Part shown: piece after piece, positions 45,811-46,274 of the stretch
Layout of the letters: every line of letters begins with the position of its first letter
Position numbering within the stretch: position 1 is the stretch's first letter
From: Heptranchias perlo
Taxonomy: Eukaryota
Length of the DNA stretch: 64,000 nucleotides
NCBI RefSeq assembly: GCF_035084215.1
Contig: NC_090330.1
Coordinates: 93,930,001-93,994,000 of the forward strand
Reading direction: 5' to 3'
Position numbers and translations under genes: made by a program
Notes under the pieces: generated by a model
The model's input: the letters and a program-made list of their open reading frames with translations, nothing else
Told to the model about the DNA's origin: nothing
Databases searched by the model: none

Positions 45811-46274
45811 GATGTGGAGATGCCGGTGATGGACTGGGGTTGACAAATGTAAACAATCTTACAACACCAAGTTATAGTCCAACAATTTTATTTGAAAATC
45901 ACAAGCTTTCGGAGGCTTCCTCCTTCGTCAGGTGAATGTCAGGAAATCCTTGAACCTTTCGCATTTATATTCAGAGAACAATACCTGGTGATTACATATA
46001 ATCATTCCAACTGCCCGTTGTCAAGGCAATCAAAGTGTTTAGACAGAGAGGTGTTACCTACAGGACAACCGAATATACAAACGGCCAGAACACAAAACAG
46101 AGAGAGAGAGGGAGAAACATCCGAAAGGAAGAGAAAGACTGAAAATGACCCATTGAATTAAAAACAGATAACTTTTATTCACTGGTGGGGTTACGTGTAG
46201 TGCGACATGAACCCAAGATCCCGGTTGAGGCCGTCCTCATGGGTGCGGAACTTGGCTATCAATTTCTGCTCGAC
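45811..46274 (-). mobile_element. Penelope 3' end / pseudo-LTR fragment of the same family
   Basis: Near-identical to 22680-23104 plus ~40 extra terminal bases; abuts a CR1. Confidence 0.85.
45899..45935 (-). ncRNA. Minimal type I hammerhead ribozyme motif, intact
   Basis: UCAC/GUGA stem I, CUGACGA core, perfect GGAGG/CCUCC stem II, GAAA, palindromic AAGCUU in place of stem III. Confidence 0.7.

What the first reader, a model, noticed from the sequence alone, without database searches (positions are those of the whole stretch)
45899..45935. Minimal hammerhead ribozyme in shark-type Penelope termini, with covariation across copies in this window
Seen: the minus strand reads UCAC-CUGACGA-A-GGAGG-AAG-CCUCC-GAAA-GC-U-U-GUGA. 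The copy at 22729-22765 has one stem II mismatch. The mini-copy at 44398-44424 has stem II GGAGA/UCUCC, a compensatory G-C to A-U swap. Established: Penelope-like elements carry minimal type I hammerheads with a palindromic, vestigial stem III and are thought to cleave as dimers. Inference: AAGCUU serves that role here, with cleavage after CUU (position 45903).
Basis: partly seen in the sequence, partly recalled or inferred. Interest (0 to 1): 0.7.

Follow-up and report, generated by a model that had tools for sequence, protein, structure and literature searches.

The report
Hammerhead ribozyme of a Penelope retrotransposon
This is a genuine copy of the tiny, predicted self-cutting RNA motif already known from Penelope-like jumping genes, sitting at the end of a cut-short copy of a very abundant family; it likely cuts the element's RNA only when two copies pair with protein help, so this lone copy is likely inert and the finding is ordinary.

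Summary
The motif at 45899-45935 (minus strand) is as described. It lies in the terminal repeat (pLTR) of a 5'-truncated Neptune-type Penelope-like retrotransposon. The genome holds 82,837 matches to the motif pattern against 77 for the control, and copies with intact 902-aa RT/GIY-YIG frames carry the motif at both ends, 3.0-3.1 kb apart. Across subfamilies the core is fixed and the stems change by wobble or compensatory steps. Cleavage is not shown: this copy has no partner, folding does not favour the active dimer, and a trace at the cut site is weak. Minimal hammerheads in Penelope pLTRs are published (PMC4209133), and this scan noted them before on other DNA (1,136 findings). New member of a known kind. 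A side lead, a telomere-associated two-ORF relative, looks more interesting.

The parts
45899..45935 (-). Minimal type I hammerhead motif; predicted cut between 45903 and 45902
45904..45907 (-). AGCU palindrome (A15.1-G-C-U16.1), the predicted 4-bp intermolecular helix III
   Evidence: sequence; GC in 84 of 84 sampled copies, with the sampling caveat in the report; ACGU in other families
45962..45969 (-). TATA-like box, about 38 nt upstream of C3; likely pLTR promoter
   Evidence: similar box 36-46 nt upstream in 12 of 14 reference copies by the pattern used
45887..45892 (-). AATAAA, 10 nt after the predicted cut; likely poly(A) signal
   Evidence: function inferred
45811..45844 (-). About 34-nt Penelope 'tail'; in full-length copies it is the leader that ends at the ATG
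45811..46285 (-). Whole insertion 1: last 28 codons of the GIY-YIG domain (46274-46191), 3' UTR/pLTR, tail; about 11 inverted bases at the 5' break; abuts another repeat
22678..25034 (-). Insertion 2: 5'-truncated, broken RT plus GIY-YIG copy with hammerhead at 22729-22765 (G10.2 to A), no tail, 12-nt target duplication at 22668 and 25034
24255..24365 (+). Inverted 111-nt piece of the element's own ORF end and 3' UTR interrupting the RT of insertion 2
44344..44437 (-). Insertion 3 (mini-copy): last 82 nt of another subfamily, starting inside the hammerhead core, plus a short inverted end; 12-nt target duplication at 44332 and 44438 in an older repeat
   Evidence: contigs that skip it, 44331 to 44438

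Best explanation
The motif is the minimal hammerhead in the terminal repeat of a very abundant Neptune-type Penelope-like retrotransposon, and it likely cuts the element's RNA after CUU only when two motifs pair through AGCU with protein help, so this lone truncated copy is likely inert. Shown: its place in the pLTR, two motifs 3,022-3,090 nt apart around an intact ORF in full-length copies, the cut site 92 nt before the ATG and 58 nt before the element end, a fixed core and pair-keeping stem changes across subfamilies. Inferred: transcription starts just upstream of stem I from a TATA-like box, so the motif is near the front of the RNA; in read-through transcripts the upstream and downstream motifs swap stem I strands and share a 4-bp helix III; cutting at both would release a unit-length RNA with a 92-nt leader and the whole ORF. 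Inferred: cutting is slow or late, because nearly all inserted copies run through the cut site, so their template was uncut or re-joined. Selection likely acts in the master lineages; the dispersed copies decay.
For: Position in pLTR next to a GIY-YIG end and tail. 82,837 matches against 77. Six full-length units with paired motifs. In 18 hand-picked subfamily haplotypes all core positions are invariant except N7, 97.8% of cells pair, 3 pairs change on both sides, 0 of 500 shuffles reach the covariation score (related sequences inflate this). Where 11.3 is not U (2,653 copies), 90 of the first 100 listed have G-C at 10.3-11.3 (my count; essentially one lineage). In 84 copies chosen by an anchor outside the motif, stem I changes are nearly all G-U wobbles or U-A to C-G and 71 of 84 have an intact core; the commonest core damage is G12 to A at a CpG (7 of 84). 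The flank just upstream diverges strongly between subfamilies while the core does not. Unrelated families keep the layout with other stems and an ACGU palindrome. 39 of 53 short copies end 29-47 nt upstream of the cut. Literature: monomers inactive, dimers weakly active (PMC4209133); the Anolis motif cleaves only with the element's protein (PMC11167929).
Against: No cleavage was observed. Nearest-neighbour energies put the double hammerhead (-18.9 kcal/mol) above two monomers (-19.8) and far above an inactive dimer (-27.7) (the model has no tertiary contacts). No extended helix I was found. The roughly 60 nt downstream of the motif are about as conserved as the core, so conservation alone does not single out catalysis. 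Copies starting exactly at the cut number 127 against 66 one base upstream, and 14 of the first 100 are fold-back joints explained by stem I homology. In Anolis, core mutants did not impair insertion in vitro and no RNA reads ended at the site (PMC11167929). Naiad elements thrive without the motif (PMC8557442).
Confidence: 0.7

Rival explanations
1. The fold is kept as a protein-binding or promoter-proximal signal at the front of the transcript, and cleavage is vestigial.
For: The whole stretch from stem I to the ATG is conserved; short copies end at the motif's 5' edge; active dimer not favoured; ribozyme activity not needed for insertion in vitro in Anolis (PMC11167929).
Against: The free positions are those a hammerhead tolerates (N7, loop, distal pair) and the catalytic ones are fixed, including G12 in a decaying CpG; unrelated families keep the same core with a palindrome.
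Confidence: 0.2
2. [quoted passage not shown] This extends, and does not exclude, the best explanation.
For: Cut-to-cut unit holds the whole ORF and leader; same-strand motifs at 3,081-nt steps on C1 near 4.46 Mb (listing, not fetched); copies run through the cut site.
Against: Read-through of tandem copies explains the same shapes; no RNA evidence; minimal motifs cleave poorly in vitro (PMC4209133).
Confidence: 0.25
3. This particular copy has been co-opted by the host to cut a host transcript.
For: Its core and stems are intact; the three window copies with the motif region are on one strand.
Against: It matches the consensus of a young subfamily (39 of 39 other places listed at 99% over 164-166 nt); it has no whole partner nearer than 23 kb, and that one has a stem II mismatch.
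Confidence: 0.02
4. The hammerhead likeness is chance within a repeat.
For: Weak fold z-score, no Rfam match, loose pattern near chance in the window.
Against: Pair-keeping changes across subfamilies, the same layout in unrelated families, and agreement with the four published hallmarks (PMC4209133).
Confidence: 0.02

Closest known systems
[quoted passage not shown]
   Same: Type I layout, 4-5 bp helix I, no helix III, extra base between A9 and 10.1, G10.1-C11.1 pair, palindromic 15.2-16.2, position in both pLTRs about 3 kb apart, nearby opposite-strand pairs, many subfamilies.
   Different: Helix II is 4-5 bp here (7-8 bp in Schistosoma). The count, 82,837, is about nine times the highest given there (about 9,000 in Xenopus), with different search rules. 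No shark is named in the text read or in the searchable supplements.
Poseidon element of Anolis carolinensis, PAc (PMC11167929; parts 1-2 of 4 read)
   Same: pLTR-ORF-pLTR layout, two alternative ends that define a tail, hammerhead near the pLTR-ORF junction.
   Different: There the ORF starts inside stem II and the tail lies in the ORF; here the cut is 92 nt before the ATG and the tail is the leader. This family has the CX2-5CxxC linker, so it is Neptune-type.
Neptune clade of endonuclease-positive PLEs (PMC8557442; passages and section 15 read)
   Same: Single RT plus C-terminal GIY-YIG ORF, CX4CxxC linker, 5' truncation, partial tandems, inverted 5' copy, 30-40 bp tail.
   Different: Clade not tested by a tree; Nematis shares the linker.
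Animal non-LTR retrozymes (bioRxiv 10.64898/2026.07.22.740005; part 1 of 5 and passages read)
   Same: Type I hammerheads derived from PLE pLTRs; reported present in one cartilaginous fish.
   Different: Retrozymes are short tandem arrays without an ORF; these window copies are dispersed truncated ends of a coding element.

Membership tests
Minimal PLE hammerhead (min-HHR) | Core CUGANGA, GAAA, UH in type I order | tested here: met
   71 of 84 anchor-chosen copies intact
Minimal PLE hammerhead (min-HHR) | Helices I and II supported by covariation | tested here: met
   few independent events, and pair 10.5-11.5 often broken
Minimal PLE hammerhead (min-HHR) | Extra nucleotide between 9 and 10.1, and G10.1-C11.1 | tested here: met
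   A in 82 of 84; G-C in 79 of 84, G-U in 5
Minimal PLE hammerhead (min-HHR) | Palindromic 15.2-16.2 with no helix III | tested here: met
   AGCU here; 1,207 matches with another base at 15.2, the first 100 being scattered single changes, an ACGU family and decayed old copies
Minimal PLE hammerhead (min-HHR) | Lies in both pLTRs of full-length elements | tested here: met
   6 of 12 fetched long loci have both motifs 3,022-3,090 nt apart
Minimal PLE hammerhead (min-HHR) | Self-cleavage as a dimer | not testable with these tools
   energy model does not favour it; only contigs available; genomic trace weak
Canonical type I hammerhead | Extended helix I with tertiary contact to loop II | tested here: not met
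   consensus fold of 13 copies with flanks has only 4-bp helix I; no Rfam match
EN+ Penelope-like element | One ORF with RT and C-terminal GIY-YIG | tested here: met
   902 aa; RVT_1 E 3.8e-10; Pfam GIY-YIG not hit, but the region aligns with a relative that does hit it (33% identity overall)
EN+ Penelope-like element | pLTRs, inverted 5' copies, 30-40 bp tail at one end | tested here: met
   tail at 50 of 99 anchored ends
Neptune clade | CX2-5CxxC linker between RT and EN | tested here: met
   residue 753 of the L136 ORF
Neptune clade | RT groups with Neptune references in a tree | not tested
   no named reference sequences fetched
Non-LTR retrozyme | Short tandem units, each with a whole hammerhead, no ORF | tested here: not met
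   window copies are dispersed, with ORF remnants or target duplications

The most novel reading that the evidence does not exclude
In this family the hammerhead is the front of the capped transcript and acts as a switch: protein-assisted dimer cleavage at both pLTRs removes the cap and the poly(A) end and releases an exact 3.0-3.1 kb unit that circularises and templates tandem copies. Tens of thousands of copies record both the start site (strong pile-up of 5' ends at the motif's edge) and, faintly, the cut.
Probability: 0.2. Interest if true: 0.55.

Novelty: new member of a known kind. Interest (0 to 1): 0.2.

Why it matters
What hammerheads do for Penelope elements is still open (PMC8557442, section 15). 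This family is a convenient test bed: young, with intact frames, about 83,000 motifs and a series of subfamilies that pass through G-U intermediates to compensatory pairs. The single copy at 45899 adds nothing by itself, and the motif class is published.

Tried and rejected
Rfam scan: no hammerhead match. Extended helix I: not found. RNA evidence: no RNA holder listed; the runs laid are contigs of guessed kind and cannot show ends, strand or expression. Host gene around the copy: no splice joints seen in 36000-55999; left open. Contigs from three other coded organisms cover the end and tail and show insertions or deletions in the stem II loop region, but whole motifs were not readable, so cross-species covariation was not counted. 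Two earlier measures of 5' ends were set aside: ungapped, 14 references, likely over-counts; unfiltered library, likely over-calls long copies; one search replaces them. The 58-copy tally dropped copies already held under earlier locus ids; (84 copies) replaces it. Five of the ten clusters (S4, S5, S8, S9 and in part S6) reflect inverted partners, local duplicates or mixed lineages, so one search was used for flank comparison.

Full report
Observation. The copy at 22729-22765 differs by G10.2 to A, and the piece at 44398-44424 has GGAGA/UCUCC. That piece begins inside the core and lacks CUGA and the 5' strand of stem I. Within the window the evidence for a ribozyme is thin: 11 loose core matches against a mean of 5.57, fold z -1.6, no Rfam hammerhead hit.

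What it sits in. Upstream on the same strand are the last codons of a GIY-YIG domain and a 3' UTR; downstream are an AATAAA, the element end near 45845 and a 34-nt tail. The second copy ends a 2.36-kb truncated, broken RT plus endonuclease copy with a 12-nt target duplication. The third is an 82-nt end with a short inverted piece and a 12-nt target duplication in an older repeat. The three are separate insertions. Of 12 long loci fetched, 8 have the same 918-codon open frame, 902 aa from the ATG, and 6 have a whole motif at both ends, 3,022-3,090 nt apart, with the predicted cut 92 nt before the ATG and 58 nt before the element end. The protein matches RVT_1, aligns over its C-terminus with a relative that matches GIY-YIG and has the CX4CxxC linker that PMC8557442 gives for Neptune and Nematis. 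I call it Neptune-type; no tree was built.

Abundance. 82,837 exact matches to the minimal pattern with GAAAGCUH against 77 for the reversed control; 99,490 matches to a 22-nt anchor downstream of the motif. Many come as inverted pairs within one insertion.

Covariation. I took 101 ends chosen by the anchor from the first 4 Mb of C1; 91 had the 3' half of the motif and 84 the whole region (locating the 3' half allowed up to 3 mismatches in 11 bases, which favours intact copies there, and the set includes inverted pairs and local duplicates). 71 of 84 have an intact core. N7 is G or C. G12 is A in 7 and C11.1 is U in 5, as expected from CpG decay after insertion (inference). Stem I pairs are U-A 66, U-G 8, C-G 6, other 4; C-G 49, U-G 31, other 4; A-U 69, G-U 14, other 1; C-G 77, U-G 5, other 2. 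Pair 10.3-11.3 is A-U 75, G-U 6, G-C 3. In 18 haplotypes I picked as recurring or lineage types, 97.8% of cells pair, three pairs change on both sides, and no shuffle of 500 reaches the score; relatedness inflates this, and the independent events are few. The cleanest case is 10.3-11.3: of 2,653 copies without U at 11.3, 90 of the first 100 listed have G-C and 10 are scattered mismatches (counted by eye). One lineage moves U-A to C-G in stem I and A-U to G-C in stem II, with G-U intermediates present. The mini-copy is 82 of 82 identical to a copy of the GGAGA/UCUCC subfamily and differs from copy 1 at 8 places. The sequence just upstream of stem I diverges widely between subfamilies; the 60 nt downstream do not, so conservation of the core alone is not specific to catalysis.

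The palindrome. In a double hammerhead the shared helix is A15.1-G-C-U16.1, four pairs; A14 and U17 stay in the core (numbering and the NUH rule recalled). Only 1,207 matches have another base at 15.2; among the first 100, 22 are an unrelated family with ACGU and most others are single changes or decayed old copies. A swap from one palindrome to another between families fits the dimer model. Against it, nearest-neighbour energies give -18.9 kcal/mol for the active dimer, -19.8 for two monomers and -27.7 for an inactive dimer, and no extended helix I appears.

How it likely works. Following leads from earlier scan notes, I measured 5' ends: 37 of 101 ends extend 70 nt or more upstream of the cut, 11 lack the 3' half, and of 53 short ones 39 end 29-47 nt upstream, 5 nearer and 9 farther. 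A TATA-like box lies 36-46 nt upstream of C3 in 12 of 14 references. This suggests that transcription starts just before stem I (inferred). Read-through of pLTR-ORF-pLTR would put two motifs on one RNA, and cutting both would free a unit with leader and ORF (inferred). Almost all copies run through the cut site, so the copied RNA was mostly uncut or re-joined. Copies that start exactly at the cut number 127 against 66 one base upstream, in the subfamilies covered by that pattern; 14 of the first 100 are fold-back joints at stem I, and a downstream control could not be run. I count this as inconclusive, weaker than notes e1-9129149 and e1-9938807 report for other genomes. The copy at 45899 has no whole partner within 23 kb and is likely inert.

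What is known. PMC4209133 (parts 1-2 of 4) describes these motifs in the pLTRs of fish, coelacanth, frog and reptile elements, with the extra base, the G10.1-C11.1 pair and the palindrome; monomers did not cleave and dimers cleaved weakly. PMC11167929 (parts 1-2 of 4) found the Anolis motif cleaves only with protein, is not needed for insertion in vitro, and left no ends in RNA reads. PMC8557442 (passages and section 15) calls the function unclear. The 2026 preprint (part 1 of 5 and passages) includes one cartilaginous fish; its supplements were not seen and may list this family. A search for Penelope, shark and hammerhead ribozyme gave one paper, where 'shark' refers to the shape. One supplement of PMC4209133 could not be searched. 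This scan holds 1,136 notes with these words in at least 37 genomes.

Verdict. Real, correctly read, known kind; interest 0.2. The telomere-associated two-ORF relative found while testing the palindrome is outside the window and is the better lead.

Noticed in passing
L215-L220, L185-L192 (G000 C1 0.92-1.02 Mb and 198.12-198.29 Mb; also C4-C11, C13-C15, C17 in the first 100 places): A second Penelope-like family with its own minimal hammerhead (ACGU palindrome, GUC site; 578 exact matches) forms head-to-tail arrays of roughly 7.4-8.3 kb units mixed with telomeric repeats; on C1 the last unit adjoins more than 13 kb of them. Each unit has a 754-aa frame with a weak GDSL esterase match (E 0.012) and a 744-aa RT plus GIY-YIG frame with a CX4CxxC linker. 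Most listed arrays lie at very low or very high contig coordinates and point inward, with exceptions on C1, C10 and C17; only some contig lengths were seen. Esterase frames in Neptune-like elements are published (PMC5408684, passage); I saw no report of a telomere-arrayed endonuclease-positive PLE in a vertebrate in the listings, a sturgeon PLE bounded by telomere-like repeats being the nearest (PMC12031113, passages), and no earlier scan note. Deserves its own follow-up.
   Followed up: partly
G000-wide; sample L091-L120 and L145-L180: 39 of 53 short copies end 29-47 nt upstream of the predicted cut, at or just before the motif's 5' edge and about 30 nt after a TATA-like box; 31 of the 53 have an inverted partner, so they are not all independent.
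   Followed up: partly
window 24255-24365: An inverted 111-nt piece of the element's own ORF end and UTR replaces a few bases in the RT of insertion 2, a likely template switch during integration.
   Followed up: no
G000 C1 and C2, listing (e.g. L199, L202): An old, decayed family with the same layout, stem I AGUU/AACU and an ACGU palindrome eroded at its CpG.
   Followed up: no
G000 C1 4,461,019-4,467,211: Three same-strand motifs at exact 3,081-nt steps, likely a tandem trimer of full-length units (listing).
   Followed up: no
window 16115-16278 and 31929-32098: Two long hairpin-forming inverted repeats (arms about 80 nt) that give sub-threshold microRNA-family matches; likely MITE-like repeats.
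   Followed up: no
window 48970-49042 (+): tRNA-like match at 31.1 bits, likely a SINE head.
   Followed up: no
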